Source: Thermoanaerobaculia bacterium (GTDB lineage: Bacteria; Acidobacteriota; Thermoanaerobaculia; Multivoradales; UBA5704). Taken from it: DNA of 64,000 bases. Shown here piece by piece: positions 1 through 16,668 of the stretch. Where the stretch lies: assembly GCA_044226625.1 (NCBI GenBank), contig JBGAGQ010000001.1, positions 64,001 to 128,000 of the forward strand, in the 5' to 3' direction. The position numbers and the translations under genes were made by a program. The notes under the pieces are model-generated. The model was not told the DNA's origin, ran no database searches, and saw only the letters and a list, made by a program, of their open reading frames with translations. The first letter of the stretch is position 1, and every line of letters begins with the position of its first letter.

Positions 1-2025
1 TCCATCCACCAGCGCAGCCCAGGGAACGAACTGGAGCGCTCCGTCCGGGCTGATCACGACGTCTCGGGTTCCCTCCGGAAACCGGGCGACGAGCGGACGC
101 CAGAGCAGATCGAACAGCTGCTGAAGCGGGGCGGCCGGGAGCGCTAAATCCTCCCCGGGCAGATCGGGCCGGGCGCCTCGGCTCCGACCCTCCAAATCTT
201 GCCGCAAGCGGGCGATCGATTCGTCGATCGGGCCGGCGGAGCCCAAGGGAACCCAAATCGGGGGCCCGGTCCGCGGCAGGACGACGGCACCGTACCGCGG
301 ATCGAGCCGCTTTCCACTCTGATAAACATGAAATCGTACCCACTCGACGAGAACCTGCCCTTCGGCGAGCGCCTTCCGGATTCGCGCGAGATCGAATTTC
401 GAACGCTCCGCACGGAGGGGCAAGGCGGCGGCTTTCGCCATCGCCGACTGCTCCGTGTCGATGGCGCGCGTCAAGTCCTCGCTTCGCTCCCGATCTTCGA
501 CCCGGCCCCGGGCGAGGGTCTCCAAGGCGGCGAGCTTCAGCCCGTGGATTCGGTCGAGGCGTTCACGGTCCTCTGGACGGATGCTCCGGCGGGCCAGAAG
601 GCGCTCCGAAAGAAGGGAGTCCTCGATCGCTCCCTTCATCCTCAACACGGCCTCCAAGAGGAGATCGGCGTCACCGAGCTCGGCGAGGTGGTCGTAATTC
701 AAGAGGGTCCTTTGGTACGCGAGACGCTGCGTCTCGGAGCCGAACGCAAGGACTCGATCGAGCACCTCGCCTTTGAGGTCCAGGGCAACCCGGCCCAGCT
801 CGAGGGCCTTCCTTCGTTCGCCGCGCCGAAGCGCGACCAAGGCGAGGCCTTGGTTGACTTCCGAAAGGAGAGATTGGTTCGGGAAGGCCTCTTTGGAAAG
901 CACGGATTTCGTGTCCGCGAGGAGCGTTTCGGCCAGGCCGAAGTCGCCCTGATAGAAAGCCACGGTTCCCAAGGTCGCCCGAAGTGGGAAGTTCGAGGGG
1001 GCCCCGGGCTCGCCCGCCGGTTCGAGCCACGCCAACGCTTCTTTCAGCTCGTCTCGTGCCTGGTCGAGCTTTCCCATCTCGAAGTGGGTAGCACCCAAGC
1101 TGGAGAGGGCCTGTCCTCGCGCCCGCCCCCTCCCGGCAAGCTTCAACGCCTCGACGAATCGCGCTTCGGCGTCGTCCAGCCTCCCGAGGCATCGCAGCAT
1201 GGCGCCGAGATCGTTGACGATCAAAAAACGCGTCGAAACGTCCTCGACAGGACCTCGCTCCAGGAGACCCTCGAGAATCCTCTGGCCGGACTCGCAAGCG
1301 CCGGTCGCCCCGTAGAGCAGGGCCAGATTGTTGCTGGTCTCTTGAAACACGCGGCTCCGCCGCTCCCCCAGCTCGCGGAGGAGGTCGAGCGCCTGAAGGT
1401 AGGCACCCTCGGAAGCCTCCACGTCTCCGAGCAGGTGGTACATGGTCGCCAAGTTCTGGAGCGCAATCGCCCGCGATTCGCGCGCCCCGCGGTCCGCCTC
1501 GCCTAAGGTCGCCGCAACGGCGGCTCGGAACGACACCGCGGCTCGGGCAATGCTCCGGGCCTTCCACCGGTTCATTCCCTGGTTGTTGAAGAGCCAGGCG
1601 CGACTTCTCCATGCGTCGCTCCGGTTCCCGAGAGTGAAGAGCGCCTGCCCATAGAGCTGCTCGGCTTTGTCGAAGCGTCCCAACGAGGCATAGAGCCCGG
1701 CAAGGTATCCGACGCGAAGCGCGTCTGAAACGGGATCGTTCCCCGGAACCTTCCGAAGGAGGACCACCATCGTCTCGACGATCGGGATTGCATCCTCTAC
1801 TGACTTCTCCGGCAGCGGGAACGGGAAAGGGGATCCGGGAACGGAAACCCAACCGCCAATCGGCTCTCGAGGCAACGTGCCGAGATCGGGCGTCAGGAGT
1901 TGCGCCTCTTCCGAGACGATTCGTTGCTCGTTGACGTTCCGATCCGCTCGACCGCTCGGACCATCCGAAAGCAGGCCCAACATGGTCATCGAGAGAAAAA
2001 GGCCCGTTCGAGGGTTCCAAGGCAT
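1..2025 (-). CDS. TPR + CHAT domain protein, 3' end beyond the left window edge (not in ORF track)
   Basis: Manual translation from ATG 2025, with RBS GAAAGGAG at 2040-2033: MPWNPRTGLFLSMTMLGLL...PIGGWVSVPGSPFPFPLPEKSVEDAIPI. The window edge reads VVISPDGALQFVPWAALVDG in the same frame, a typical CHAT N-terminal strand motif. Paralogue of 2061-4805. Confidence 0.85.
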   Translation of the reverse strand, partial: MPWNPRTGLFLSMTMLGLLSDGPSGRADRNVNEQRIVSEEAQLLTPDLGTLPREPIGGWVSVPGSPFPFPLPEKSVEDAIPIVETMVVLLRKVPGNDPVSDALRVGYLAGLYASLGRFDKAEQLYGQALFTLGNRSDAWRSRAWLFNNQGMNRWKARSIARAAVSFRAAVAATLGEADRGARESRAIALQNLATMYHLLGDVEASEGAYLQALDLLRELGERRSRVFQETSNNLALLYGATGACESGQRILEGLLERGPVEDVSTRFLIVNDLGAMLRCLGRLDDAEARFVEALKLAGRGRARGQALSSLGATHFEMGKLDQARDELKEALAWLEPAGEPGAPSNFPLRATLGTVAFYQGDFGLAETLLADTKSVLSKEAFPNQSLLSEVNQGLALVALRRGERRKALELGRVALDLKGEVLDRVLAFGSETQRLAYQRTLLNYDHLAELGDADLLLEAVLRMKGAIEDSLLSERLLARRSIRPEDRERLDRIHGLKLAALETLARGRVEDRERSEDLTRAIDTEQSAMAKAAALPLRAERSKFDLARIRKALAEGQVLVEWVRFHVYQSGKRLDPRYGAVVLPRTGPPIWVPLGSAGPIDESIARLRQDLEGRSRGARPDLPGEDLALPAAPLQQLFDLLWRPLVARFPEGTRDVVISPDGALQFVPWAALVDG

Positions 2026-2060
2026 CCGAGGGCTCCTTTCGCCTTTGCGGACCGACGCGA

Positions 2061-4805
2061 TCAGCGCGCGAGAACGAAGCCGCCCGCCTGAGCTACGGCC
2101 CAGCGGATGTCTTCGTGCAGATCTCTCAATTGGCGCAGGCGGGCGACCTGCGTCTCGTGAAACGCAAGGAAGGGGTCCTTGGCCGCGAACAATCGCTCGT
2201 AGAACCGCTCCATGAACTGCGCCGTCGCCGCGTCGTCGACCGACCAAAGGGTGAACAGGAGATTCCGGGTGCCCGCCAAGGCGAAGCCGCGCCGAAGGCC
2301 GAGCACCCCTTCGCCCCCCCTAGACTCACCGCTGCCCGTTTGGCACGCGGAGAGCACGGTCAGCCAGGTGTGGCTGAGGTCGAGCCCGCTCACCTCTTCG
2401 GCGTTCAAGATCCCATCGGAGGAGGCCGCTGGAACCACTCCCCGACTCCAGGCCTCGAGGCTCTGTCGCGCGCCGCCCAGCAGCACGTAGGCGCGGTACA
2501 TCGGCTGGCGGCTCAGCCGCGTTTGGATCGCCGATTTCAAATCGGCGCGAAGCTGTCCGCCGTGCGTCGCCAAATGGAGGATCGTGGGCCCGGGCTCCTT
2601 GAAAAGAGCCGGCTCGGAGGCTTGATCTCCCGTCAGAACCTTCACCTTCCAGTCGTTCGATTCCGCGGTTTTCGCCAGCGTCTCGGCCTCCTCCCGGGCG
2701 TAGGGAAGGTTGCCCAGGCCGTCGGCGAGCGCGAGCACCGTTTTGCCTTCCGGAACGGGCGAGGACCGCAGCAGGTCTCGGCCTGAGGTCACCTGCGAGA
2801 TTTGCCAGCTTTCCGCCACGAAAACGTCCCGGTCGTCAATCAGCGCCGCCCACGGTACGAAATGCAGCGCGCCGTCGGGGCTCAACAGGACCCTTTTCGT
2901 GCCGGTCGGGAACTCCGCCGCAAGGGGCGTCCAGAGCCGATCGAACAGCTTGCGAAGGGCATCCTTCGCGTCGCTGGCGCCCCCCTCGGGCAGATCGGGT
3001 TTTGCGCCGCGATCTCCGCCATCCATCGCGCCGACGACCTTCTCCGCGAGGGCATCCATCTCTTCGGCCCGGGCGAGGGGAATCCAACAGGGCCTACCCG
3101 AGTGGGGAATCAGTACGGCGCCGTAATGGGGTTCGAGCGTTCCTCCCTTGACGGAGAGTCGATAGCGCATCATCTCGACGAGAACCTCGTCCGATGCGAG
3201 CGCTGCCTGAATCTTCGCCAGATCGAAGGGGGGGCGTTCGCCGCGGAGCGGCAGCGAGACGCTCCGTGCCAGCGCGGTCTCCTCCCGCTTGAGTGCCCTC
3301 GCGATCTCTTCGTCCTTGGCCGTGCTTTCCAATCCGCCACGCGCGAGGCTCTCCATCACCCGAATCTTCAGCGCGTGGATTCGGTCGAGGCGTTCGCGAT
3401 CTTCCACCTTGACCGCCCGCCTCGCAATGGAGCGCTCGGCGAGCAGCGAGTCGAGAACCACCCCTTTGAGACGAAGCACGGCCTCGGCGAGAAGAGGAGC
3501 GTCGCCGATCTCGGCCAGGTAGTCGTACAGGTACGCGTTGCTCTGATAAGCGAGCCGTTGGCTCTCCGACCCGAAGGCGAGAATCCGTTCTAGCTCTTCG
3601 ATTTCCTGATCGAGGGCCAAACGGCTCAGCTCCAACGCCCGCGCAGGCTGTCCTCGCCTCTGGGCGACCAATGCCAGTCCTCGATTGAGGTCCGACAGGA
3701 GCCACCGGTCGCGCCTCGTGCCGCTGGCAAAATCACTTTTCGATCGCACCCATCTCGCCTCGGCCGACGCGAGGTTCCCCTGCAAGAGATCGAGATTTCC
3801 CAGAGTCGCTTCGACTCCCCCCAGGAGGCGCCGGTCCGTCCGATCCGATTTCAAAAGCAGACCGCGGGCCTCTTCCGCCTCGGCGCGCGCCTTGTCCAAG
3901 TCGCCGGAGTCGGTGTGAGTTGCCGACAGAGATAAAAGAATCAAGACTCGGGAAGGACCGTTCCCCGCAAACTTCAGGGCCTCGCCGAGCCTCCGCTCGG
4001 CTCCTTCGAGATCCTTGACACCACGGAGCGCTTCACCCGAGTTCATGAGCAACGCCAAACGGAGGTTGGGGTTCCAGACTCCGCCTCGAGCGATCAGAGC
4101 GTCGAGCTGGCGACGCGCCCTCTCGAAGTCGCCGATCGATCCATAGAGCACCGCCAAGTTATTGACCGTCGCCTGGTATGCGGAACTGTCCTCTCCCGTC
4201 CCGCGAAGGAGGTCGAGTGCGAGGAGGTAGGCCTCTTCCGAGGCTTCGGCGTCACCGAGGAATTGATAAGCCGACGCAAGGTTCTGCCAGACGATCGCTT
4301 GCGGCTCGCTTTCAACGCCGCCCTTCTCGCCGATCACCGCCACGGCGGCCCGAAACGACTGCGCCGCTTCGGCATACCGCTCCGCGTTCAAGCGGGTCAT
4401 ACCTCGGTTGTTGAGAACCCACCCCAGGTCGCGCCCCGAGGCCTTGTTCCGCTCGAGGATCGTTTGCGCCTGGGCGTACAGATCCTCCGCTTTGGAGTAG
4501 TTGCCCGTCCCGCCATACAACCCAGCGAGAAACCCGAGGCCTCGGGCATACGCGGGCCCTTCGCCGCCAAACGTACGAATCCCCTCGAGAATCGATTGGT
4601 AAATCGGAATCGCATCTTGCACAGCTCCTTGAGGGACCGGAAAAGGGATTCCGGGAACCGAGATCGATCCGCCGATCGGCACGGGCTGCCATCTCGATCC
4701 GTCCGAGAGGGAGCGCGCCGATACCGGCCCGACGCACAACGGAAGGAGGACGGCGACGACCGCCGCCGTTCGGAAACCGACGTTTGGCGATCGCCGCCTT
4801 CTCAC
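2061..4805 (-). CDS. secreted TPR + CHAT (caspase-like, clan CD) protease
   Basis: Signal-peptide-like N-terminus, kinesin-light-chain-type TPRs, SPDGALHFVPW, catalytic HLATHG and LSACQTG, TLWSVDD. Confidence 0.92.
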   Translation of the reverse strand: MRRRRSPNVGFRTAAVVAVLLPLCVGPVSARSLSDGSRWQPVPIGGSISVPGIPFPVPQGAVQDAIPIYQSILEGIRTFGGEGPAYARGLGFLAGLYGGTGNYSKAEDLYAQAQTILERNKASGRDLGWVLNNRGMTRLNAERYAEAAQSFRAAVAVIGEKGGVESEPQAIVWQNLASAYQFLGDAEASEEAYLLALDLLRGTGEDSSAYQATVNNLAVLYGSIGDFERARRQLDALIARGGVWNPNLRLALLMNSGEALRGVKDLEGAERRLGEALKFAGNGPSRVLILLSLSATHTDSGDLDKARAEAEEARGLLLKSDRTDRRLLGGVEATLGNLDLLQGNLASAEARWVRSKSDFASGTRRDRWLLSDLNRGLALVAQRRGQPARALELSRLALDQEIEELERILAFGSESQRLAYQSNAYLYDYLAEIGDAPLLAEAVLRLKGVVLDSLLAERSIARRAVKVEDRERLDRIHALKIRVMESLARGGLESTAKDEEIARALKREETALARSVSLPLRGERPPFDLAKIQAALASDEVLVEMMRYRLSVKGGTLEPHYGAVLIPHSGRPCWIPLARAEEMDALAEKVVGAMDGGDRGAKPDLPEGGASDAKDALRKLFDRLWTPLAAEFPTGTKRVLLSPDGALHFVPWAALIDDRDVFVAESWQISQVTSGRDLLRSSPVPEGKTVLALADGLGNLPYAREEAETLAKTAESNDWKVKVLTGDQASEPALFKEPGPTILHLATHGGQLRADLKSAIQTRLSRQPMYRAYVLLGGARQSLEAWSRGVVPAASSDGILNAEEVSGLDLSHTWLTVLSACQTGSGESRGGEGVLGLRRGFALAGTRNLLFTLWSVDDAATAQFMERFYERLFAAKDPFLAFHETQVARLRQLRDLHEDIRWAVAQAGGFVLAR

Positions 4806-4808
4806 GAT

Positions 4809-5744
4809 CTAACTCCTCTCCTTCTGCGGCTGGACCCCCATCCCCTGCACGATCTGGTCGCCGTTGCCTCCGGTGACCGAGCAAAACGAGGTTCGCTCCG
4901 TGACGTTCGTGACTTTCACCCGGGCGCGCTCGTGGACGACCTCGTCGAGCGTCTCGCCGGTGTCGGGATCCGAAATGATTTCCGACTCGCCCACGACGAA
5001 CTCATCCCCGACCGAAACGCCTTCGCGCGAGCCCCGATTGAGGATGATCTTTTCGCCATCCACCTTGACGACCGAACCGCGCCAGGGCACCGAGGGGAGC
5101 TGCTCGACCATCCAAGGGATCACGTCTTTGATCGCCGTCTGCAGGGCCTCGTGTACGTTGTCCTTCTTCCCCGTGGTGATCGATCCCGCGTTCCCCAGTT
5201 TGTTCAGACCGAAGGAGATACCGTGTCCCTGCGCCAGTCCGACGAAATCCTTCGCGGCCACCAACGCGCCGGTCGTGGAGTCGATCATTTGCAAGGTGGC
5301 CCGAATTTCCGTCTTCGCTCGGTTCGCACCGATCTTGAACTGACCCAGATCGATTCCGCCCCCCTGGTTCGAGGCGTCCTTCTCGAAGTGGGTGATGACC
5401 CCTTTGACGAGAAGTTGTGCCGGGCTCATGCGACTCCGGACCGCCGTCTTCTTTCCCTGCACCGTCACACCCGACGCGCCACGTGCCTGCTCGTCGAGCG
5501 CGCTCTTCTGCATGTCGCTCTGCGCGACGACGATGAAATCGCCGCTTTCCTGGAGGGCCGTCGTCAACTCCGTCGCCCAGTCGTACCCGATACTGTCCGG
5601 AGCCTCGCTGTGGTTCTCGAACTTTTCGACGAAAACCGTATAGCGGAGCCCTCCGCTCGTACGGGCCCAGGCTGGTGAGAAGTGAAATGCGATTCCGAGT
5701 AGCAGACCAAGGCTCACGCTCTGAAGTCTTCGTTTCGAGTACAT
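4809..5744 (-). CDS. CsgG/HfaB-family exported protein with FlgT-like C-terminal beta domain
   Basis: Signal peptide; VFVEKFEN...LTTALQESGDFIVV...AQLLVKGVITHFE...MIDSTTG (CsgG pattern); C-terminal WRGSVVKVDGEKIILNRGSREGVSVGDEF. Confidence 0.8.
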   Translation of the reverse strand: MYSKRRLQSVSLGLLLGIAFHFSPAWARTSGGLRYTVFVEKFENHSEAPDSIGYDWATELTTALQESGDFIVVAQSDMQKSALDEQARGASGVTVQGKKTAVRSRMSPAQLLVKGVITHFEKDASNQGGGIDLGQFKIGANRAKTEIRATLQMIDSTTGALVAAKDFVGLAQGHGISFGLNKLGNAGSITTGKKDNVHEALQTAIKDVIPWMVEQLPSVPWRGSVVKVDGEKIILNRGSREGVSVGDEFVVGESEIISDPDTGETLDEVVHERARVKVTNVTERTSFCSVTGGNGDQIVQGMGVQPQKERS

Positions 5745-5787
5745 CGTGGTTCCTCCTTGAATAGGGATTGAGGGGTCCAGCGGGGAC

Positions 5788-7881
5788 TCATAGGTGAACG
5801 TCTCGCGAACGCAGAACCGCGAGCGTTCCGGCGATCAGGAGAAGCGCCTGGGCCGTGAGGACGAAAAGCAAGGTACCCGGGCGGGTTCGGTTCTTGGCCG
5901 GAAAATAGAACTCGGCAAACCCTTCCTGCTCGCTGTTCAAAACGGGAAGTTTCGTCTTCGATCCCGCCTTGGCCGGCTCCTGCCGCACGATCTCTTCCAT
6001 GGGCCGTCGCTTCTCCTCGGCGTCGACCGCGAGCTCGAGAGCCCAGCGCGAGGGCATCAGGTGGGCGATCGTTCGCGCGGTTTGTTGCATCTCGTGAACT
6101 GGACGCAGCATTCCGCCGAGCATCACCATCGGCAGGATGGCGATCGGCACGAGGGAGATCGCGACCTCAGAGCTCCGCGCGAGAGCCGAGAGTGTGAGAC
6201 CGATCGACGAGCCAACGAGGGCGCTCAAGAACAGGCCGGCGAGCAGGCGCGGCCATGGCGCCTCGATCTCGCAGCCGGCTCGAACGATCGCCAGCAACAG
6301 GCCGCACTGCACGAGGCCGATCAAGCCGAGCAGCACGAGCTTCGCCCCAAGGTACGCCACGAGGCGCAGGCCGACCATCCGTTCCCGGGCGAAGACCGGG
6401 CGCTCGGCGACAATCTCGCGCGCCGCGTTCGAACAGCCGAACCAAAGGGCGGCGATGTTGGACAGGAAGAGGACGGAAGCGACCGAAGGCCACGCCATGG
6501 CCTTGCTGACCCCTTCCTCCGGCCGAGTCGCGGCGCCGAAAACTAGGACGATCAGGAGCGCGATGATCGGTGCTTGGACCATCAGGATCACGCCGTTCCA
6601 GCGGTCTCTCGCCTTGAGCACCAGCTCCCGTCGAGTCAGGAGGATCAATTGGCGGAGTGCCGAGGGGAGCTTGCGGGGCCGCGGCTCCGTCGCGACCTGC
6701 ACGTCGCTCTGACCCGCCCGCTGGTCGACGAATCGGCTCTTGATCGCGGAGCGTTCGTACCGGTTCGACCATTCCGCCGTCGACTTCTTCGCGAGACCTC
6801 GAAGCACCCCCTCGGGTGAAGGCTCGGCGGGCAAGGAAAGGTCCGGATTGAAGAATCGAATCGCCTCCGGATAGGCCGGGCCGTAATAGACCACCCGGGC
6901 GGGATTGCGGGTCTCAACGTCGCGCGAGACCACGACCAGGTTGTCCATCAGGCGGAAGACCTCGCGGCTCGGCTGATGGATCGTGAGCAGGATCGTGCGC
7001 CCCTCCAGCGCGAGCTCGCGGAGCCCCTCCATCACCAGCAGGGCGTCCTCGGACGACAGGCCCGAGGTGGGCTCGTCGAGCAGCAGGACCGGTGGATCGG
7101 TCAGCAGCTCCATCGCGACGTTTACCCTCTTCCGTTCACCGCCACTCACGACCTTGCGCGTCGGCGAGCCGATCGCCGAGTCTCGAATGTGGGCGATGTG
7201 AAGCTGGGACAGCACACGGTCGATCCGCCGCTCGATCTCGTCGCGGCCGGTATCGCCGGGGAGCCTGAGCTTTGCGGTGAAGTACAAGGCCTCACGCACG
7301 GTCAGGTCGCCATGGAGAATGTCGTCCTGGGGTACGTAACCGATGCCGAGCCGGAATTGATCGAACTCGGCGTACAGGTCGCGGCCGTTGTAAAGCACTC
7401 GCCCGGCGCTCGGCGGCTGATAGCCGTTGAGCGCGGTCATGAGCGTCGTCTTGCCCGCACCGCTCGGCCCCATCAGGCCGACCAGCTCTGAGGGCAGAAG
7501 GGTGAGCGACACGCCTTCGATCAATCGCCGCTTGCCCGCATCGATCGCGACCCCTTGGGCCTCCACGCGGGTGTTGCCCCGGTAATCGCGCCGTTCGAGG
7601 AATTCGTCGTCCAAACGAACCAGGCGGCTGCCGCCCAGGTCGACGATGTCGCCGATCTCGAGAGGGGCGGTCGCCGAAAGGCGGGTACCGTTCAAAAAGG
7701 TCCCGTTGGTCGAACCGAGATCGGTCACCGTCCAGCGCGCACCGGAGCGCTCGATCCGCGCATGCCGACGCGAGATCAAGGGATGATCGATCGCCAGGTC
7801 GTTCTCCGACGTCCGTCCGACGATCAGAGCGGCGGAGGAGCCGAGTTGCAGGCGGAAGCCGGGAGGAGGAGCGGCCGTCAT
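5788..7881 (-). CDS. FHA domain-ABC transporter ATPase/permease fusion (Rv1747-like, ABCG-type)
   Basis: FHA motifs GR..ISRRH..STNGTFLNG; Walker A GPSGAGKT; VSGGE signature; LLLDEPTSGL; C-terminal ABC2 membrane domain. Confidence 0.92.
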   Translation of the reverse strand: MTAAPPPGFRLQLGSSAALIVGRTSENDLAIDHPLISRRHARIERSGARWTVTDLGSTNGTFLNGTRLSATAPLEIGDIVDLGGSRLVRLDDEFLERRDYRGNTRVEAQGVAIDAGKRRLIEGVSLTLLPSELVGLMGPSGAGKTTLMTALNGYQPPSAGRVLYNGRDLYAEFDQFRLGIGYVPQDDILHGDLTVREALYFTAKLRLPGDTGRDEIERRIDRVLSQLHIAHIRDSAIGSPTRKVVSGGERKRVNVAMELLTDPPVLLLDEPTSGLSSEDALLVMEGLRELALEGRTILLTIHQPSREVFRLMDNLVVVSRDVETRNPARVVYYGPAYPEAIRFFNPDLSLPAEPSPEGVLRGLAKKSTAEWSNRYERSAIKSRFVDQRAGQSDVQVATEPRPRKLPSALRQLILLTRRELVLKARDRWNGVILMVQAPIIALLIVLVFGAATRPEEGVSKAMAWPSVASVLFLSNIAALWFGCSNAAREIVAERPVFARERMVGLRLVAYLGAKLVLLGLIGLVQCGLLLAIVRAGCEIEAPWPRLLAGLFLSALVGSSIGLTLSALARSSEVAISLVPIAILPMVMLGGMLRPVHEMQQTARTIAHLMPSRWALELAVDAEEKRRPMEEIVRQEPAKAGSKTKLPVLNSEQEGFAEFYFPAKNRTRPGTLLFVLTAQALLLIAGTLAVLRSRDVHL

Positions 7882-7897
7882 CTCTTCTTCTCCTCTC

Positions 7898-9883
7898 CTA
7901 GCGAGCGCCAGCCGCTGCGCGCAGCTGGCTCCAGTCGTCTTGAATCGCCTGGATCACGTCGGCGGTCGGTCCGATGAAGGCGTTCCGCGCCTTCCCCTGG
8001 GCGGAGAGCTCCGTGTATTCGAGCGTCTCGGTCCATCCCGAGCCCAAGGTTCGACTGGTAGGCAGCATGTAGGCGTTCATGCGTATGCGCGCCGGTGTGA
8101 GCGAACCCTTGAGGCCCTTGAACCTCACGGTCTGGCGCTCGCCATCCTCGACCCGCAAGAGGACCAGGACATGGAAACCTTTCTGAACGAGCTCCGCGCC
8201 AAGCGCCTTTTGCGAAACTTTCGCGCCCTTTTTTTCGAGCATCTCGTCGATCTCCGGCTCGCCATGCTCGTCGACTACCTGGAATCGGCGCGACAGCCTC
8301 CGCTCCATCTCCTGTTCGAGCGGCACCGCGAGAACCGGATCCCCCCCGGCGAGCACCGCCACCTGGGGCCGATCGGGAAGCGCGCCCATGGAAGGAGGCA
8401 TCCCAGGGGGAGCTCCCGAGCCGGGAGGCATTCCCGGGGGCATGCCAGGCGGCATCCCCGGCGGCGCACCGGTCGTGCCGGGGGGGATCTGCGGAGCGCC
8501 CCCGTTCGCCGCCTGCGGCCAGCCCTGGGGCAGGGTGGGAGGCGCCTGGTTCGGATTGGCGTTCGGCACCGGAGGAGCCGGCGTCATTTGGGAGCCCGCC
8601 GTTGAGTCGTGCGGATGGAACTTCGCGAGATTCCCTTGCGTGCCCCCGTTTCCCACGTCGTCCGTCGACCCTTTCGAATCGGGCCGAGCTTTCCCCGTGC
8701 CCCCGACTTGGGAGGCGTCCTCCTTCTTCGAGACTTCGGAATCCGAAGACTCACCTTCGTCGTCGGTCTTCGACGCTTGGAAAGCGAACAGGCCGGCGAC
8801 TCCTAAAAGAAACGCCGCGCCGACGAGCATGCGGCGGCGAAAGATCCTGCGGCGGATCGCATTGAACTCGGCGGCCGACATCGCCGGGATCCTGCCCACC
8901 GGAGCGGGCGGTGAGGCGGGCCGCGGACTTGCCGCGCGGATCGTCGGATCTACGCCGAGGGGAGCCACCGACGCGCCGGCCAACGGCATCACGCTCTGCC
9001 GGACAGTGGCATCCACCATCGGCTCGTACGAAAGCCTTTGGCCCGCGGGGGCGAGGTCCGCGGTTTCCAGATCGCGCGCCATCGTTTCGCAATCGGGATA
9101 GCGGTCGGCGGCCCGCTTCGCGAGGGACCGCATCACGACCGCTTCGAGGGCAGGAGAGACCTCGGGCGCGGCAGACCGTAGAGGCGGCGGAGTCTCCGAA
9201 ACGTGGGCCTGAAGGATTGCGAATTGGGAACCCGAATCGAACGGCGTGCGCCCCGCGAGGAGCTGGTAGAGCACGACTCCGAGGGAATAGATGTCGGCGC
9301 GGCTATCGACCGCGTCCGGAGTCAGAATCTGTTCGGGGCTCATGTACTGGGGCGTGCCGACCGCGATACCGGTCGTCGTGAGGCCAGGCGACGCATCGGC
9401 CCTGGCGATTCCGAAGTCGGCGACAACGACCTCGCCGCTCTCGTTTAACAGCAGGTTCGCGGGCTTGACGTCGCGATGGACGATCCCCTTCTTGTGCGCA
9501 AAGCCAAGCCCCGCCAGAGCCTGGCGGGCCCAGAGCAGTGCCTGGGACCTCGGCACGGACCCGGCCCGCCGTTCCAGGACCTCGGCCAAACTCCCGCCGT
9601 CCACGTATTCGACGACGAGGAACCAACGCCCTCCGTCTTCCAGGTAGTCGAGGATGCGGGCGATGTTGGGGTGCCGCAATTGGGATTGCAGCTCGGCCTC
9701 GCGACGGAAGCGCTGGCGAAAGGACTCCACCGATTCCAGGCCCGGCGATAGAACTTTGACCGCGGCTCGAAGCATCAGAGAGGCATGGCGAGCGAGATAG
9801 ACCGAGCCCATGCCCCCCTGCCCCAACTCGCTTTCGAGCATCCAGCTGCCCACCTTGCGACCGATCAGAATCTCTTCCGCCAC
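7898..9883 (-). CDS. Hanks-type Ser/Thr kinase with TM, Pro-rich linker and extracytoplasmic domain
   Basis: LGQGGMGSVY, AVKVL, HRDVKPAN, DFGIA, GTPQYMSPE; TM after RRRIFRRR. Start set at GTG 9883 (GGAGG upstream) instead of the ORF-track start at 9991. Confidence 0.92.
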   Translation of the reverse strand: MAEEILIGRKVGSWMLESELGQGGMGSVYLARHASLMLRAAVKVLSPGLESVESFRQRFRREAELQSQLRHPNIARILDYLEDGGRWFLVVEYVDGGSLAEVLERRAGSVPRSQALLWARQALAGLGFAHKKGIVHRDVKPANLLLNESGEVVVADFGIARADASPGLTTTGIAVGTPQYMSPEQILTPDAVDSRADIYSLGVVLYQLLAGRTPFDSGSQFAILQAHVSETPPPLRSAAPEVSPALEAVVMRSLAKRAADRYPDCETMARDLETADLAPAGQRLSYEPMVDATVRQSVMPLAGASVAPLGVDPTIRAASPRPASPPAPVGRIPAMSAAEFNAIRRRIFRRRMLVGAAFLLGVAGLFAFQASKTDDEGESSDSEVSKKEDASQVGGTGKARPDSKGSTDDVGNGGTQGNLAKFHPHDSTAGSQMTPAPPVPNANPNQAPPTLPQGWPQAANGGAPQIPPGTTGAPPGMPPGMPPGMPPGSGAPPGMPPSMGALPDRPQVAVLAGGDPVLAVPLEQEMERRLSRRFQVVDEHGEPEIDEMLEKKGAKVSQKALGAELVQKGFHVLVLLRVEDGERQTVRFKGLKGSLTPARIRMNAYMLPTSRTLGSGWTETLEYTELSAQGKARNAFIGPTADVIQAIQDDWSQLRAAAGAR

Positions 9884-10052
9884 AGAACCTCCGAGCCTTG
9901 GGTTTGTTTTAGTAGACACACCCGAAAAGGTTTGGTGGATTGCCGAACAAAGAGAGGCTGGCCGCGGGGGACGAAAAACAAACGCTTCCACGCCGTGTCT
10001 CTCCCAAGGAAACCTTTCCGAGGGAATCGATGCTCTACGCGGCGACTACCGA

Positions 10053-11945
10053 GTGATCCGATTTCGTGTCGAAATCCAAGCCGTGGCGAGCGGCTTTGCG
10101 GTGCGAGCCTCCTGCCCGCGAGGGGAGGGCCGCTCCCAGCTCGTTCTGACCACCCCGATCTCGGCGGTACCTTCTTCCAACGGCGAGCACGATCCGAGAG
10201 CGATCGGAGAAGAGCTTTTTAGCTCGCTGCTGATGGGAGAAACCCTTTCGCTCTACGAGCGCTCGATCGACGACCTCGAAGCCGACCCCGACGGCATGCT
10301 CAGGATGGAACTCAGCTTCGATCCGCGGGACCCCGACGTGGCGGCTCTTCAGCGCCTTCCCTGGGAGCTCCTGAACAAACCCGGCTCCCCCGATCTCCTC
10401 GCGCTCGACCGGAGGAGGTCGATCGTCCGGTATCTCACCGTACCCCAGCGGATTACCGCGGCCCCAAAGCCCCAAAAACTGCGCATCCTGGCGGTCACGT
10501 CCGATCCCCGTCTGACCGGAATGCGTCCGTTGAACCTCGAAGGCGAGCTTCAGAGCCTTCGGGACGCCATCGGAAATTCAGGCACTCTCGAGCTGATCGA
10601 GCTAAGGAACGGCACCCTCGCCGCGCTCCGCGAAAAGCTCGTCGAACAGGAGTTCCACGTCCTTCATTTCCTCGGCCACGGGGTTCGACACCCAGCGTCC
10701 GGTGACCAGGTGCTCTATTTCGAGGGGCCTCTTCGCCAAGCCGATCCGGTGAGCGGTTCGGACCTGATGAACAAGCTTTCCGGACGCCCTCGCTTGCGTC
10801 TCGTCGTGCTCAACGCCTGCGAATCCGGCGTCGTTCCCGAGGGATCGAAGGAGATGGAATTCCGGCCCCTGGCGAGTGTTGCGACCTCGCTCGTACTCGG
10901 GGGCATGCCCGCGGTGATCGCGATGCGCAAGCCGATTCGGGACTCCGCGGCGGTGGCTTGGGCCCACGGATTCTATTCGCGCCTGGCGGCGGGCGACACG
11001 ATCGACGCCGCCATGGTCGAAGGGCGCCAACAGGTCCATTCGAGAGACCGTGCTGGCGACGAATGGGCGACGCCGATCCTTTTTCTTCGCTCGGCGACCG
11101 GCGAGCTCTACCCCGAGCGGGAGCTACCGCCAGAGGGGGTCACCCGCTGGCGCCTCGGCCGCCGCTTCGCGATTCTGGTTACCCTGCTTCTCGTCGCCGG
11201 TTTGGCCTGGCTCGGCCGGAGAGAGTGGGTGGATCAGCGGGTCCAGCGCCTCTGCGCGGAGGGCGCCGCCAAGGTCACCGCCGGAAACTGGAACGAGGCA
11301 CGCGAGCGCTTCCGGACCGCTCTGAAGCTCGCTCCCCGCTCGGCCAAGGTGGCGACAAATCTGGCCGCCGCCGAGGAGCAGTTGGGCGACGTGCGCGCGG
11401 CCGAGGATCTCTATCGCGAGGCCGCGCTGCGGGAGCCGGAATCCGTGGATCGGCTCTACGACCTCGGCCACTTCCTAAACGATCACGGCAACCCCGTCGA
11501 GGCTTACGGCGTCCTTTCCAAGGCTGTGACGTGGCCCGCTCCCTCGCCGCGAAACTCCGAGGTCTACGCCGAGCTGGCGCGAGCCGCCCTGTCTCGCGGG
11601 CTTTTCTCCCGCGCGAGAACGAACATCGCCGTCGCGTTGCGGCTCGACCCGGAGCGCGCCGAGTACTACAGGCGCCTCGGCGAGATCGAGCTGGCGAGCG
11701 GCTCTCCCGCGGCGGCGATCGCTCCGCTTGAGAGGGCTCTCGACCTCTTCGCCGTCGGCGATCTCGGGCGCATCGAGACGCTCGCCCTGCTCGCGCAATC
11801 CGAAGACCGGCTCGGCAACGCCGCCGCCACCTGCCGTCGGGTCGACGACTTCCGCCTGCTCGACAACCAGGGGATCTCGCCCTGGGCCCCGGCGGTGGAG
11901 GAAATCGCCCGCCGCCGGGCTTGCCCTGAAAGGACCGACGGATGA
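10053..11945 (+). CDS. N-terminal CHAT domain + TM + C-terminal TPR protein
   Basis: LQRLPWELL, HVLHFLGHG, VVLNACES, EWATPILF; TM FAILVTLLLVAGLAWL; then TPRs. Start uncertain: GTG 10053 chosen, frame is open from 9810. Confidence 0.85.
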   Translation: MIRFRVEIQAVASGFAVRASCPRGEGRSQLVLTTPISAVPSSNGEHDPRAIGEELFSSLLMGETLSLYERSIDDLEADPDGMLRMELSFDPRDPDVAALQRLPWELLNKPGSPDLLALDRRRSIVRYLTVPQRITAAPKPQKLRILAVTSDPRLTGMRPLNLEGELQSLRDAIGNSGTLELIELRNGTLAALREKLVEQEFHVLHFLGHGVRHPASGDQVLYFEGPLRQADPVSGSDLMNKLSGRPRLRLVVLNACESGVVPEGSKEMEFRPLASVATSLVLGGMPAVIAMRKPIRDSAAVAWAHGFYSRLAAGDTIDAAMVEGRQQVHSRDRAGDEWATPILFLRSATGELYPERELPPEGVTRWRLGRRFAILVTLLLVAGLAWLGRREWVDQRVQRLCAEGAAKVTAGNWNEARERFRTALKLAPRSAKVATNLAAAEEQLGDVRAAEDLYREAALREPESVDRLYDLGHFLNDHGNPVEAYGVLSKAVTWPAPSPRNSEVYAELARAALSRGLFSRARTNIAVALRLDPERAEYYRRLGEIELASGSPAAAIAPLERALDLFAVGDLGRIETLALLAQSEDRLGNAAATCRRVDDFRLLDNQGISPWAPAVEEIARRRACPERTDG

Positions 11946-13153: not shown

Positions 13154-13396
13154 TGCACCTCGGACCCGCAAGCGCAGGTCGCCGAACGCGCGAGCGATGA
13201 GGAAGACGCGGGCGCCTTGAAGCTCGGCCGGCGGAACCCGACGGGAAAGCTCGACCACCGCGCGCTCCGCATCGCTCTCGACGATGCGGCCGAAAGCCAG
13301 ACGGGTGACGGCGTTGTCTCGTTCAGCACCGGCCCGATGGACTTTGACTTTGGGGGCCGGAGCGGAGGAGGAGCTCAGCGAACTCGGCGGGACACT

Positions 13397-16300: not shown

Positions 16301-16478
16301 GTTCGACGACGAAGTGGCGGGCCGAGCTCGTCAACTCTCCCGGTTTGAGCGAGGTTCGGGCTTCCGCTTCTCCGAGTCCGGCGATCGTCAAAGCCCAGGC
16401 GAGGAGGATGACGAGGCGTCGGCGCACAGCCCCCCTTCCAGCTTCGGTCTGCGTCCTCTCGGTACCCGGTCTGGCCAC
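13397..16478 (-). pseudogene. TPR + CHAT protease split by a 1-nt frameshift (ORFs 14598-16559 and 13397-15049)
   Basis: GTG 16478 with AGGAGG RBS, signal peptide and TPRs. Removing one base from the G5 run at 15095-15099 joins the two frames (FGPWRRRLKELANLPAEAMAKD). CHAT motifs HLAAHG, LSSCQSG and PFYWAGY are intact. Confidence 0.75.
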
Positions 16479-16615
16479 GTTCGAGCCCTCCTTCTTTTCA
16501 AAGACACTCTTGATCGCTGAGAGGGGGCGACTGTTCAGACGGAGAGGGCTCGGAATCACGGCGGGCGTGTCATCGAAGCGGCGCGGGCTCCCTTGCCCTG
16601 CCCGTCCCCGATCGA

Positions 16616-16645: not shown

Positions 16646-16668
16646 CCTCAGGTCCAAAAGGAGTGGTC

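What the first reader, a model, noticed from the sequence alone, without database searches (positions are those of the whole stretch)
1..9883. Operon linking a Ser/Thr kinase, an FHA-ABC transporter, a CsgG-like protein and two exported caspase-like CHAT proteases
Seen: five co-oriented genes with 3-43 bp gaps (kinase > FHA-ABC > CsgG-like > TPR-CHAT > TPR-CHAT); the complete CHAT keeps its His/Cys dyad. Known: FHA-ABC transporters such as Rv1747 are activated by Hanks kinases, CsgG forms an outer-membrane secretion pore, and CHAT proteases act in development and defence (HetF, Csx29). Inference: a phosphorylation-gated export or envelope proteolysis system. I do not recognise this combination as a described pathway.
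Basis: partly seen in the sequence, partly recalled or inferred. Interest (0 to 1): 0.75.

Follow-up and report, generated by a model that had tools for sequence, protein, structure and literature searches.

The report
Kinase, FHA-ABC exporter, CsgG/FlgT-like protein, exported CHAT
A conserved, undescribed four-gene envelope module of Thermoanaerobaculia joins a membrane kinase, a phospho-regulated ABC exporter, a CsgG/FlgT-like periplasmic protein and an exported caspase-like protease; what it does is still inferred.

Summary
Five co-oriented minus-strand genes lie 3-43 nt apart: a Hanks kinase, an FHA-ABCG exporter, a CsgG-family protein and two TPR-CHATs.

The first four form a cassette in 9 of 9 genome loci whose CsgG-like protein is at least 55% identical, in nine Acidobacteriota MAGs with unrelated flanks. 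Those CsgG-like proteins form one clade.

Catalytic residues of the kinase, FHA, ABC and CHAT are conserved, and the CHATs carry signal peptides.

Two points change the picture:
- **The "CsgG" is atypical.** It has no lipobox and no Phe/Asn/Tyr constriction. Its best structural match is the periplasmic ring protein FlgT.
- **The kinase has an unnamed periplasmic domain.** It sits on a 76-178 aa low-complexity tether and has the PelC/LpoB/CsgG fold. Such kinases sit next to CsgG-like genes in 11 further loci.

My best reading, at 0.4, is a trans-envelope signalling unit that gates an ABCG exporter and uses a periplasmic CHAT protease. CHAT secretion through a pore is the main rival. No paper describing the combination was found.

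The parts
7898..9883 (-). Single-pass Hanks Ser/Thr kinase, 661 aa: cytoplasmic kinase domain, one TM helix, a low-complexity Pro-rich periplasmic tether and a C-terminal domain
   Evidence: Pkinase 2.3e-50 over residues 16-261. The motifs VAIK-Lys, HRD, DFG and SPE are conserved in 17 of 17 aligned kinases. The TM helix and a 130-aa linker with 20% Pro are. GGAGG lies before the GTG start at 9883.
7901..8365 (-). C-terminal periplasmic domain of the kinase, about 155 aa, not in Pfam, with a PelC/LpoB/GNA1162/CsgG/FlgT-M-type fold
   Evidence: The AF2 model has pLDDT 92 and pTM 0.85. Foldseek against the PDB gives CT253 at 7.5e-6, FlgT at 1.5e-5, PelC with TM up to 0.63, then GNA1162, LptE, TolB-N and CsgG. 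No Pfam hit. A profile search finds 428 cluster representatives at E<=1e-3, with the domain at or near the C-terminus in all but a few of the 150 best listed. Of 60 representatives of 500 aa or more, 47 are kinases. Atlas neighbours include LpoB and GNA1162-like clusters.
5788..7881 (-). FHA-ABCG half-transporter, 697 aa: N-terminal FHA, nucleotide-binding domain, ABC-2 membrane domain and an extra C-terminal TM helix
   Evidence: Pfam FHA, ABC_tran and ABC2_membrane. The protein matches ABCG5 over residues 117-619, and also ABCG2 and CDR1. FHA residues G-R, S-x-x-H and N-G, and the Walker A, signature, Walker B and H-loop motifs, are invariant in 44 of 44 orthologues.
7633..7824 (-). FHA domain of the ABC protein (residues 20-83), followed by the conserved linker motif ERRDYRGxTRxEA with Thr104
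   Evidence: FHA 2.1e-21. Thr104 is conserved in at least 90% of 44 orthologues. Its role as a phospho-acceptor is inference.
4809..5744 (-). CsgG/FlgT-family exported protein, 311 aa: signal peptide without lipobox, CsgG-like alpha/beta core with two Gly-rich hairpin insertions, and a FlgT_C-like beta domain
   Evidence: CsgG 8.4e-17 and FlgT_C 1.9e-08. The family profile matches E. coli CsgG residues 59-229 at 9e-07. The AF2 model has pLDDT 72. Foldseek gives FlgT and the LPHT ring at 4-5e-13 over about 306 columns, and CsgG at 3e-11 over about 200 columns.
2061..4805 (-). Exported TPR-CHAT caspase-like protease 1, 914 aa: signal peptide, conserved N-terminal motif, TPR array and CHAT domain with a His748/Cys822 dyad
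   Evidence: CHAT 1e-55 with TPR_12. The TPR part resembles kinesin light chain. The dyad is invariant in 11 of 11 orthologues.
1..2025 (-). Exported TPR-CHAT 2, a paralogue cut by the window edge (675 of 930 aa); lineage-specific duplication
   Evidence: TPR repeats plus the start of CHAT. It is identical to the first 675 aa of P0276, which keeps the His and Cys motifs. A second copy is present only in the window and in L001.
9884..10040 (.). Divergent intergenic region upstream of the kinase; it holds the ribosome-binding site, and no sigma-70-like promoter was recognised
   Evidence: Sequence. The promoter scan found 0 sites. The upper bound is approximate, because the true start of the divergent CHAT-TM-TPR gene is not fixed.

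Best explanation
I read this as a trans-envelope signalling and response module of Thermoanaerobaculia. Only the conserved four genes count; the second CHAT is a local duplicate.

Proposed steps, all inferred:
1. The single-pass Hanks kinase spans the periplasm on a long low-complexity tether. Its C-terminal PelC/LpoB/CsgG-fold domain sits against the exported CsgG/FlgT-family protein, which forms or joins a ring under or in the outer membrane.
2. The exported TPR-CHAT is the periplasmic protease of this assembly. It acts as a sensor or processing enzyme, as proposed for the periplasmic TPR-CHAT of the anti-sigma factor DdvA. Its most accessible candidate substrate is the kinase's flexible tether or the ring protein.
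3. A change at the envelope alters kinase activity. Phospho-threonine on the kinase's juxtamembrane linker, or on Thr104 of the ABC protein, is read by the FHA domain of the ABCG-type exporter. That switches on export of a lipid-like or hydrophobic envelope compound, as PknF does for Rv1747.

Shown here: gene order and its conservation, domain content, intact catalytic and binding residues, signal peptides, predicted topology and fold relationships.

Inferred: every contact, the direction of signalling, the protease substrate and the transported compound.
For: **Synteny.** The full cassette is present in 9 of 9 loci with at least 55% CsgG-like identity, in nine different MAG assemblies with unrelated flanks. 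The cassette CsgG-likes form one clade (10 rows, SH-aLRT 100), sister to L010, where a CHAT gene also abuts the CsgG-like gene (quick tree).

**Wider co-occurrence, by a proxy.** Of 35 CsgG-like clusters (at least 50% identity) on contigs of 8 kb or more, 27 share that length with an FHA-ABC or TPR-CHAT orthologue, and 16 with both. Of 46 FHA-ABC orthologues, 34 share it.

**Link between the kinase sensor domain and the CsgG-like protein.**
- Both have the same fold class.
- A kinase lies directly beside a CsgG-like gene in 11 of the other 70 loci, in both gene orders and at three or more places in the tree. The same C-terminal domain is seen in 10 of these; in L066 the contig ends first.
- All 17 kinases examined have a disordered tether of 76-178 aa where a TM helix was called, which was 16 of 17 at the threshold used.
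- The complex prediction gave weak support. The median score was 0.51 (runs 0.51, 0.54, 0.00) and the best of 3 controls was 0.01. The mark was reached by 116 of 157 solved complexes and 2 of 215 mismatched pairs. At 0.60 or under it was reached by only 18 of those 157, and by both mismatches that passed. The runs agree in at least 42% of contacts and the partner's pLDDT is at least 78. My own alignments were used, so the counts hold only roughly.

**Link between the kinase and the ABC.** FHA phospho-threonine-binding residues and ATPase motifs are invariant in 44 of 44 orthologues, and Thr104 is conserved in the FHA-NBD linker. The cassette kinases share a conserved G-[AG]-T-[VI] motif in the juxtamembrane linker. 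The PknF/Rv1747 precedent comes from the abstracts of PMC3138270, PMC3908365 and PMC8339232, seen in the listing.

**Periplasmic TPR-CHAT precedent.** DdvA, from passages of PMC11506125 read.

**Exported CHATs.** Signal peptides in 12 of 12 sequences inspected. A hydrophobic N-terminus is present in 45 of 52 orthologues; by eye, several of the 7 misses begin at a later start codon inside the conserved motif.
Against: - No contact is demonstrated. The only interaction test is a weak pass, and one of its three runs scored 0.00. Both chains also share a ring-forming fold with solved homo-oligomers (CsgG, PelC), so the pass may reflect that likeness.
- The kinase domain and the CsgG-like family show no sequence homology (hhalign probability 0.1).
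- Among 70 non-cassette loci, 59 have no adjacent kinase, so the link is not obligatory.
- The cassette has no phosphatase and no recognisable substrate gene.
- The ABC has one FHA domain, not the two of Rv1747.
- The CsgG-like protein passes Pfam's CsgG threshold and keeps both hairpin insertions. A pore, and hence the secretion rival, is not excluded.
- The tight coupling of the CsgG-like and CHAT genes (a 3 nt gap) fits a transporter-cargo pair as well as it fits my reading.
Confidence: 0.4

Rival explanations
1. Secretion system. The CsgG-like protein forms an oligomeric outer-membrane beta-barrel pore. It exports the Sec-delivered TPR-CHAT protease(s) to the cell surface or the medium. 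The conserved N-terminal motif of the CHAT serves as the targeting signal, as the N-terminus of CsgA does for CsgG. The kinase and ABC pair regulates or supports this.
For: - The Pfam CsgG score is above the gathering threshold (61.6 against 20.8 bits).
- The family profile aligns with E. coli CsgG across both transmembrane hairpin regions.
- AF2 predicts long beta-hairpins there.
- The CsgG-like and CHAT genes are contiguous in 10 of 10 cassette loci, with a 3 nt gap in the window. L010 independently places a CHAT gene next to the sister CsgG-like.
- A conserved motif (IGGxVSIPGxPLPP...) directly follows the signal peptide of the CHATs.
Against: - The window's protein has no lipobox Cys. Of 116 family members, 106 lack even a loose lipobox. 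Non-lipidated CsgG is a soluble pre-pore (title of PDB 4uv2).
- The loop that aligns with the CsgG constriction is variable, three residues shorter than in the sister subfamily, and has no aromatic residue. Passages of PMC4594475 read say the Phe ring plus an H-bond ring is required.
- The hairpins show only 2-3 hydrophobic positions per strand, and conserved Arg142, Lys144 and Glu146 lie where CsgG has lipid-facing residues.
- The best fold match is the periplasmic protein FlgT.
- The cargo would be a TPR protein of about 880 aa, against small unfolded curli subunits.
- Of the 70 loci of the sister subfamily, 59 have neither a kinase nor a CHAT gene beside the CsgG-like gene, and the recurrent neighbours are housekeeping genes.
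Confidence: 0.25
2. Conflict or defence module. The exported and cytoplasmic CHAT proteases of this CHAT-rich island are effectors or sensors of an anti-phage or anti-competitor system. The kinase and FHA parts are its trigger logic, comparable to the DdvA-controlled defence island or to kinase-based defence systems.
For: - Five CHAT genes lie within 17 kb, three of them outside the finding (9810-11945, 13397-15049 and the TPR ORF 14598-16559).
- GC3 is 0.73-0.82 in 1-17000, against 0.85-0.93 for most genes elsewhere in the window. This suggests a distinct origin or expression class.
- The flanks differ between genomes, as for mobile islands.
- The periplasmic TPR-CHAT of DdvA controls a CBASS/CRISPR island.
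- The CHAT-TM-TPR protein weakly matches the PADLOC SAVED_CHAT model (2.4e-10).
Against: - PADLOC has no match for the CsgG-like protein or either TPR-CHAT. The kinase matches only generic kinase models.
- I saw no nuclease, NTPase, STAND or CRISPR/CBASS gene in the cassette or next to it.
- I saw no integrase or tRNA at the borders.
- The cassette genes are conserved at 55-90% identity across nine MAG assemblies, without the rapid diversification usual in defence genes.
Confidence: 0.12
3. Trans-envelope exporter for a lipid or polymer. The ABCG pump in the inner membrane feeds a PelBC- or Lpt-like outer part, in which a ring of PelC-fold domains holds a TPR protein. The CHAT domain processes the exported product or a carrier, and the kinase adjusts the flux.
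For: - The kinase domain and the CsgG-like protein both hit PelC, including PelBC 9h80. The kinase domain also hits LptE of LptDE.
- PelC works together with the TPR-bearing porin PelB (title of 9h80, plus my own recall).
- ABCG/ABC-2 exporters move lipids and lipid-linked polymers (family knowledge; one search shows only the likeness).
Against: - Neither the cassette nor its variable flanks holds a porin, a periplasmic bridge, a glycosyltransferase or a polymerase.
- The TM-scores to PelC and LptE are modest, 0.25-0.63.
- The reading does not explain why a caspase-like dyad is invariant.
Confidence: 0.1

Closest known systems
PknF / Rv1747 of Mycobacterium tuberculosis (Hanks kinase plus FHA-ABC exporter operon)
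   Same: The kinase gene lies directly upstream of an ABC exporter with an N-terminal FHA domain, an ABC-2/ABCG-type membrane domain and intact phospho-threonine-binding residues. In Rv1747 the kinase positively regulates the transporter through Thr residues in a linker (abstracts in the listing).
   Different: This ABC has one FHA domain, not two. The kinase has a large periplasmic part with a folded PelC/CsgG-type domain. Two exported proteins (CsgG-like and TPR-CHAT) are added. The host is diderm Acidobacteriota.
CsgG, the curli secretion channel (and the CsgG/HfaB family)
   Same: The protein scores above the gathering threshold of Pfam PF03783. Its alpha/beta core has two Gly-rich hairpin insertions at the positions of TM1 and TM2 of CsgG.
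   Different: It has no lipobox and no Phe/Asn/Tyr constriction. The hydrophobic faces of the hairpins are short. It carries an extra FlgT_C-like domain. There are no csgE, csgF, csgA or csgB-like neighbours.
FlgT (Vibrio flagellar H/T-ring protein; PDB 3w1e, 8z5n)
   Same: FlgT is the best whole-length structural match, with about 306 aligned columns at E 4-5e-13. The C-terminal domain hits Pfam FlgT_C above its cut-off. The protein is exported without a lipid anchor. That FlgT is a ring-associated periplasmic protein rests on the PDB titles and my own recall.
   Different: The TM-scores are only about 0.4. FlgT_M scores below its cut-off. The Pfam scans of the window found no flagellar genes.
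DdvA of Myxococcus xanthus (anti-sigma factor with a periplasmic TPR-CHAT)
   Same: DdvA has a TPR-CHAT with a His-Cys dyad located in the periplasm. It is proposed to sense a signal and cut a flexible periplasmic linker of a transmembrane signalling protein (passages of PMC11506125).
   Different: Here the TPR-CHAT is a separate, Sec-exported soluble protein. The transmembrane signaller is a Hanks kinase, not a zinc-binding anti-sigma factor. No ECF sigma factor is adjacent. Whether the three-helix motif of the active site is present was not tested.
PelC / PelBC and LptE / LptDE (outer-membrane-associated ring or plug proteins of export machines)
   Same: They share the fold class of the kinase's C-terminal domain. 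PelC also matches the CsgG-like protein. PelC forms a dodecameric ring (PDB titles).
   Different: There is no sequence similarity. The window's CsgG-like protein has no lipid anchor, and the cassette has no porin partner. Here the fold is fused to a kinase.

Membership tests
CsgG curli-type secretion channel (PF03783) | Sequence match to the family model above the curated threshold | tested here: met
   61.6 bits against a cut-off of 20.8, over profile positions 29-207 of 210. The family profile hits E. coli CsgG at 9e-07.
CsgG curli-type secretion channel (PF03783) | N-terminal lipoprotein signal (lipobox Cys) that anchors the protein to the outer membrane | tested here: not met
   The signal peptide ends ...SPAWA|RTSGG and has no Cys. 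None of the 22 aligned members has a lipobox in register. Of 116 full-length relatives, 10 match a loose lipobox pattern, about 3 of them plausibly by eye, and none lies close to the window's protein.
CsgG curli-type secretion channel (PF03783) | Constriction loop with a stacked Phe ring and an Asn/Tyr H-bond ring | tested here: not met
   Residues 45-51 (HSEAPDS) are variable, contain no aromatic residue and are 3 residues shorter than in the sister subfamily. The requirement is stated in passages of PMC4594475. The test rests on an alignment, not a structure.
CsgG curli-type secretion channel (PF03783) | Two amphipathic transmembrane beta-hairpins per protomer that build a 36-stranded barrel | tested here: inconclusive
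   Both insertions are present and aligned, and AF2 predicts them as beta-hairpins at pLDDT 53-86. Only 2-3 hydrophobic positions per strand are seen, with conserved Arg142, Lys144 and Glu146 at the base.
CsgG curli-type secretion channel (PF03783) | Nonameric assembly | not tested
CsgG curli-type secretion channel (PF03783) | Curli partner genes (csgE, csgF, csgA, csgB) nearby | tested here: not met
   The Pfam scans of the cassette and the rest of the window found none.
FlgT (flagellar H/T-ring protein) | FlgT middle and C-terminal domain architecture | tested here: inconclusive
   FlgT_C scores 35.1 bits against a cut-off of 27, which is met. FlgT_M scores 18.9 against 31.2, which is not met. 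FlgT is the top Foldseek hit, but with TM about 0.4.
FlgT (flagellar H/T-ring protein) | Flagellar gene context | tested here: not met
   No flagellar families appear in the Pfam scans of the window or among the recurrent neighbours in the 80 loci.
Rv1747-type FHA-ABC exporter with cognate Hanks kinase | N-terminal FHA with intact phospho-threonine-binding residues on an ABC-2/ABCG-type exporter | tested here: met
   The residues G-R, S-x-x-H and N-G are invariant in 44 of 44 orthologues.
Rv1747-type FHA-ABC exporter with cognate Hanks kinase | Hanks kinase encoded directly upstream in the same orientation | tested here: met
   The gap is 16 nt in the window. The order is the same in L001-L007 and L009, and L008 retains the kinase's 3' end.
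Rv1747-type FHA-ABC exporter with cognate Hanks kinase | Two FHA domains joined by a phospho-acceptor linker (T152, T210) | tested here: not met
   There is a single FHA domain. A conserved Thr104 lies between the FHA and the NBD, but it is only a candidate site.
Rv1747-type FHA-ABC exporter with cognate Hanks kinase | Phosphorylation-dependent activation of transport | not testable with these tools
   This needs kinase and transport assays.
TPR-CHAT proteases (separase, craspase/Csx29, DdvA type) | CHAT domain with a His-Cys dyad preceded by a TPR array | tested here: met
   CHAT 1e-55 with TPR repeats. The dyad is invariant in 11 of 11 orthologues. NCBIfam Csx29 and HetF models match only the neighbouring CHAT genes, and far below their cut-offs.
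TPR-CHAT proteases (separase, craspase/Csx29, DdvA type) | [quoted passage not shown] | not tested
DdvA-like transmembrane anti-sigma factors | Cytoplasmic zinc-binding anti-sigma domain and TM helix before the TPR-CHAT, with a cognate ECF sigma factor | tested here: not met
   The TPR-CHATs start with a signal peptide only. No sigma factor is in the cassette; the nearest ECF sigma gene is at 27878-28495.
Known anti-phage defence systems (PADLOC-DB 2.0) | Match of the system-specific proteins to a defence model | tested here: not met
   The CsgG-like protein and both TPR-CHATs have 0 families. The kinase matches only generic kinase models.

The most novel reading that the evidence does not exclude
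This would be a new kind of trans-envelope switch. A eukaryote-like Ser/Thr kinase is plugged, through its own PelC/CsgG-fold domain on a periplasm-spanning tether, into an outer-membrane-proximal CsgG/FlgT-like ring. An exported caspase-like TPR-CHAT protease cuts that tether or the ring on an envelope signal. This converts an outer-membrane event into phospho-threonine signalling, which opens an FHA-gated ABCG exporter. The kinase-ring pairing would be the ancestral core, and it would be found well beyond this cassette.
Probability: 0.15. Interest if true: 0.8.

Novelty: new variant of a known kind. Interest (0 to 1): 0.58.

Why it matters
Three questions would become testable if the reading holds.

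1. **Caspase-like proteases in the periplasm.** Periplasmic TPR-CHAT proteases are almost unstudied. [quoted passage not shown] This cassette offers a soluble, conserved example with defined candidate partners.

2. **What Hanks kinases sense in diderm bacteria.** The unnamed PelC/CsgG-fold sensor domain occurs in 428 cluster representatives, mostly on kinases. It repeatedly sits next to a CsgG/FlgT-family gene. This points to a physical link between kinase signalling and an outer-membrane-proximal ring.

3. **How far the PknF/Rv1747 logic reaches.** The FHA-gated ABC exporter would be extended from mycobacteria to Acidobacteriota, with extra envelope components. CsgG-family proteins would also gain a role outside curli and holdfast secretion.

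The hosts are uncultured environmental bacteria, so the value is mechanistic rather than applied.

Tried and rejected
- **Homology of the kinase C-terminal domain to the CsgG-like family by profile-profile comparison:** none (probability 0.1). Its profile found nothing in PDB sequences either (best E 0.61). The relationship rests on fold only.
- **PADLOC:** nothing specific.
- **NCBIfam:** no family for the CsgG-like protein. Only far sub-threshold TPR hits for TPR-CHAT 1.
- **Promoter and terminator scan:** 0 promoter-like sites. There were 10 terminator-like sites against 8.4 +/- 3.2 in shuffles, so this is not informative.
- **Rfam on the whole window:** 0 matches. **tRNA scan:** 0.
- **A second CsgG-like gene or kinase-domain copy in the window:** none by tblastn.
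- **Frameshift at 13397-16559:** I tried to resolve it with CHAT proteins from L001 and L006, but only the CHAT domain aligned.
- **Careful phylogeny:** it did not finish in 300 s, so the quick IQ-TREE tree is what I cite.
- **N-terminal CHAT motif:** my first strict regular expression matched only 21 of 52 orthologues. By eye, the looser core [VI][ST]IPGxPLPP is present in most of the rest. I therefore give no count for it.
- **Loose lipobox pattern:** it flagged 10 of 116 CsgG-like proteins. In most of these the Cys sits in the middle of the hydrophobic core.
- **Paper searches:** 'CHAT domain'+'CsgG', two six- and five-term combinations and 'CHAT domain'+'FHA domain' returned 0. 'CsgG-like' returned 9 papers, none on this system. 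CsgG+FHA+kinase+ABC transporter and CsgG+caspase+TPR returned only proteome or annotation lists, judged from titles and abstracts.
- **ABC as the exporter of the CHATs:** rejected, because the CHATs carry Sec-type signal peptides and the ABC is of the ABCG type.
- **Chance juxtaposition:** rejected because of the conserved synteny.

Full report
**1. What is in the sequence**

The region holds five co-oriented genes on the minus strand.

| Gene | Coordinates | Pfam result |
|---|---|---|
| Hanks Ser/Thr kinase | 7898-9883 | Pkinase 2.3e-50 |
| FHA-ABC | 5788-7881 | FHA 2.1e-21, ABC_tran 9.3e-33, ABC2_membrane 9.8e-29 |
| CsgG-like | 4809-5744 | CsgG 8.4e-17 (61.6 bits, cut-off 20.8), FlgT_C 1.9e-08 |
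| TPR-CHAT 1 | 2061-4805 | CHAT 1e-55, TPR repeats |
| TPR-CHAT 2 | 1-2025, runs off the window | TPR repeats, first 45 positions of CHAT |

The kinase starts at GTG 9883, behind a GGAGG. The gaps are 16, 43, 3 and 35 nt.

The catalytic dyad of TPR-CHAT 1 (H748 in HLATHG, C822 in SACQTG) is invariant in 11 of 11 full-length orthologues. The full-length form of the second copy is P0276, identical over the 675 aa in the window, and it keeps both motifs.

**2. Is it a unit?**

The CsgG-like protein belongs to a sizeable family: 944 proteins at E<=1e-3 among 3394 candidates. Where the sources name them, they are mostly from Thermoanaerobaculia or Acidobacteriota MAGs.

A scan of species-representative genomes with a 22-sequence alignment found 405 relatives, and the best 80 loci were kept. 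I searched these with the window's domains and clustered the neighbouring genes.

- The order kinase > FHA-ABC > CsgG-like > TPR-CHAT appears in L001-L009. These are exactly the nine loci whose CsgG-like protein is at least 55% identical. L008 is cut inside the kinase.
- The nine come from nine different MAG assemblies. Their flanking genes are unrelated, except in the closest relative, L001.
- The second TPR-CHAT occurs only in the window and in L001.
- On a quick maximum-likelihood tree of 81 CsgG-like sequences, the cassette proteins form one clade (10 rows, SH-aLRT 100). It is sister to L010, where a CHAT gene also sits directly beside the CsgG-like gene.

A proxy extends this beyond the nine loci. 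Orthologue searches for the TPR-CHAT and the FHA-ABC each show a sharp orthogroup: 57 hits at 40% identity or more, and 46 hits at 65% or more. Many of these hits share their longest-contig length with CsgG-like hits. Of 35 CsgG-like clusters on contigs of 8 kb or more, 27 share it with one partner and 16 with both. Two of the 8 misses are L006 and L007, which do carry the cassette, so this is a lower bound. It remains only a fingerprint, not proof of adjacency.

**3. Anatomy of the parts**

*Kinase.*
- All catalytic motifs are conserved in 17 of 17 aligned kinases.
- A single TM helix follows the kinase domain, then a low-complexity P/T/S/A-rich stretch. It is 130 aa with 20% Pro in the window, and 76-178 aa across the 16 of 17 kinases in which a TM helix was called.
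- A C-terminal domain of about 155 aa has no Pfam match.
- The AF2 model of this domain is confident (pLDDT 92, pTM 0.85). Its Foldseek hits are CT253, FlgT, PelC (TM up to 0.63), GNA1162, LptE, TolB-N and CsgG, at E from 7.5e-6 to about 5e-4.
- The language-model atlas likewise finds LpoB and GNA1162-like clusters among otherwise unnamed neighbours.
- A profile of the domain finds 428 cluster representatives at E<=1e-3 in 1.84 billion proteins, at or near the C-terminus in all but a few of the 150 best listed. Of 60 representatives of 500 aa or more, 47 have a kinase domain and 13 have no Pfam family. Two further proteins carry Sel1 repeats.

*FHA-ABC.*
- This is an ABCG-type half-transporter. 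It matches ABCG5 over residues 117-619, and also ABCG2 and CDR1.
- The FHA phospho-threonine-binding residues and the Walker A, signature, Walker B and H-loop motifs are invariant in 44 of 44 orthologues.
- A conserved motif, ERRDYRGxTRxEA with Thr104, lies between the FHA and the NBD.

*CsgG-like protein.*
- It has a cleavable signal peptide with no Cys, a CsgG-like core and a FlgT_C-like beta domain.
- The family profile aligns with E. coli CsgG residues 59-229, including both transmembrane hairpin regions.
- The AF2 model (pLDDT 72) predicts long hairpins there.
- The best whole-length Foldseek matches are FlgT and the LPHT ring (E 4-5e-13, about 306 columns). CsgG follows (3e-11, about 200 columns), then PelC and GNA1162.
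- Column by column, the would-be constriction loop is variable, non-aromatic and three residues shorter than in the sister subfamily. Each hairpin strand has only 2-3 hydrophobic positions, and Arg142, Lys144 and Glu146 are conserved at the base.
- Passages of PMC4594475 state that CsgG is a lipoprotein nonamer whose Phe ring and H-bond ring are required.
- The protein is therefore a CsgG-family member by sequence. It fails two defining features of the curli channel, and a third is undecided.

*TPR-CHATs.*
- All 12 sequences inspected begin with a signal-peptide-like segment, followed by a conserved motif (IGGxVSIPGxPLPP...SVExAI).
- A hydrophobic N-terminus is present in 45 of 52 orthologues. 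By eye, several of the misses start at a later codon inside the motif.
- No SignalP-type predictor was available, so export rests on inspection.

**4.

In the other 70 loci the CsgG-like gene (41-49% identity) mostly lies among housekeeping genes. The malic enzyme gene is upstream in 24 loci, and Ddl, GTP cyclohydrolase I and MurA also recur.

In 11 of these 70 loci, however, a Hanks kinase lies directly beside the CsgG-like gene: L013, L020, L021, L036, L040, L043, L049, L056, L066, L067 and L078.
- The kinase lies upstream in two loci and downstream in nine. The loci sit at three or more separate places in the tree.
- Wherever its C-terminus is on the contig (10 of 11; in L066 the contig ends first), it carries the same C-terminal domain. 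For L021 and L056 this rests on the alignment only, not on the phmmer threshold.

So the pairing of a kinase bearing a PelC/CsgG-fold domain with a CsgG/FlgT-family protein is wider than the cassette. This suggests that the two meet in the periplasm.

One complex prediction of the two gave weak support.
- The median score was 0.51 (runs 0.51, 0.54, 0.00). The best of three controls was 0.01.
- The mark is reached by 116 of 157 solved complexes and 2 of 215 mismatched pairs. At 0.60 or under it is reached by only 18 of the 157, and by both mismatches that passed.
- Contact agreement was at least 42% and the partner's pLDDT at least 78. My own alignments were used.
- Both chains resemble ring-forming homo-oligomers such as CsgG and PelC, so the pass may reflect that likeness.
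- The two families show no sequence homology.

**5. Most likely mechanism**

I favour a trans-envelope signalling and response unit, at confidence 0.4.
1. The kinase's tether spans the periplasm. Its C-terminal domain docks on the CsgG/FlgT-like protein near the outer membrane.
2. The exported TPR-CHAT acts on this assembly. The analogy is DdvA, whose periplasmic TPR-CHAT is proposed to cut a flexible linker of a transmembrane signalling protein (passages of PMC11506125).
3. Kinase output is read by the FHA domain of the ABCG exporter, as PknF positively regulates Rv1747 through linker threonines (abstracts in the listing).

The candidate phospho-sites are inference: the conserved G-[AG]-T-[VI] in the kinase linker and Thr104 in the ABC. 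The exported compound is unknown. The ABCG fold suggests a lipid-like molecule.

**6. Rival explanations**

- *Secretion of the CHATs through a CsgG-like pore (0.25).* This fits the Pfam membership, the retained hairpins, the 3 nt gene coupling and the conserved N-terminal motif. It is weakened by the missing lipid anchor and constriction, the short hydrophobic faces, the FlgT-like fold, the size of the cargo, and the fact that 59 of the 70 sister-subfamily loci have neither a kinase nor a CHAT gene beside the CsgG-like gene.
- *A defence or conflict module (0.12).* This fits the CHAT-rich island. Three more CHAT-related genes lie at 9810-16559, and GC3 is 0.73-0.82 in 1-17000 against 0.85-0.93 for most genes elsewhere. 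The DdvA precedent also fits. PADLOC has nothing specific, though, and I saw no typical defence enzymes nearby.
- *A PelBC- or Lpt-like trans-envelope exporter (0.1).* This fits the fold hits, but the cassette has no porin, bridge or synthesis genes.
- *Chance adjacency.* This is excluded by the synteny.

**7. Novelty**

None of the searches of the held library returned a paper on this gene combination.
- Zero hits.
- 'CsgG-like': 9 papers, none on this system.
- 'CHAT domain' with 'periplasm': 9 papers, of which DdvA was the only relevant one.
- only proteome or annotation lists, judged from titles and abstracts.

The library lacks most subscription journals, so this does not prove absence. 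Each pairwise relation has a known analogue: PknF/Rv1747, DdvA, and CsgG/FlgT/PelC rings. I therefore rate it a new variant of a known kind rather than categorically new.

**8. Limits**

- There was no signal-peptide predictor, no oligomer model of the CsgG-like protein and no model of the TPR-CHAT.
- The tree is a quick search.
- The contig-length fingerprint is a proxy.
- All hosts are uncultured MAGs.

Noticed in passing
window 9810-11945 (+) and 11942-13153 (+): A gene pair lies divergent from the kinase. The first protein has a cytoplasmic CHAT (residues 167-420), a TM helix (449-467) and a periplasmic TPR part. It overlaps by ATGA with a 403-aa protein that has a signal peptide and only a weak TPR hit. 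The same pair lies beside the cassette in L001 and about 4 kb from it in L007. The listed ORF start at 9810 overlaps the kinase start, so the true start is probably near 10040.
   Followed up: partly
window 13397-15154 (-) and 14598-16559 (-): A CHAT ORF (CHAT 6.2e-61) and a TPR ORF overlap by about 450-550 nt in different frames. The last 150 aa or so of the TPR ORF are Arg/Gly/Pro-rich and look out of frame. This is probably one long TPR-CHAT gene split by a frameshift, either a pseudogene or an assembly error. Comparison with CHATs from L001 and L006 did not resolve it.
   Followed up: partly
window 1-17000 compared with 17000-64000: Third-position GC of the likely genes is 0.73-0.82 in the CHAT-rich stretch, against 0.85-0.93 for most genes in the rest of the window. 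This suggests a compositionally distinct island or a different expression class. No tRNA lies at the border, and I saw no integrase in the Pfam scans.
   Followed up: no
loci L022, L025, L029, L031, L032, L033, L042, L048 and 6 others, about 100 nt downstream of the CsgG-like gene: In 14 of the 80 loci, the non-cassette CsgG-like gene is followed by a small exported protein of about 130 mature residues. It has no Pfam family and a conserved start ...NPYQED.... It could be an accessory factor or a cargo of that subfamily.
   Followed up: partly
proteins P0147, P0153, P0167, P0171, P0174, P0179, P0183, P0187, P0190, P0195, P0203, P0219, P0226; P0206, P0270: Thirteen of 60 long proteins that end in the kinase-type C-terminal domain have no Pfam kinase hit, and no other family at 1e-5. 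Two other proteins combine the domain with Sel1 repeats.
   Followed up: no
window about 8384-8500 (-), within the kinase tether: The periplasmic tether ends in a run of PPGMPPGMPPGMPPG-type repeats. The tether's sequence is not conserved between orthologues, while its length and its P/T/S/A bias are.
   Followed up: no
window 46628-48352 (-): A bacterial member of the animal haem peroxidase family (PF03098, 1.8e-144) lies next to a two-component system and ion transporters.
   Followed up: no
window 32760-35035 (-): Two acyl-CoA dehydrogenase ORFs overlap by about 240 nt as listed. The upstream extension of the second ORF is probably spurious.
   Followed up: no
window 40867-45135 (-) and 60970-64000 (-): A TonB/ExbB/ExbD cluster has two TonB_C proteins and two ExbD genes. 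An NRPS module (C-A-T-TE) runs off the window end. Both fit a diderm, soil or sediment type of organism.
   Followed up: no
locus L067 11001-13050 (+): The kinase next to the CsgG-like gene is split into two overlapping ORFs, one with the kinase domain and one with the C-terminal domain. This suggests a frameshift in that MAG.
   Followed up: no
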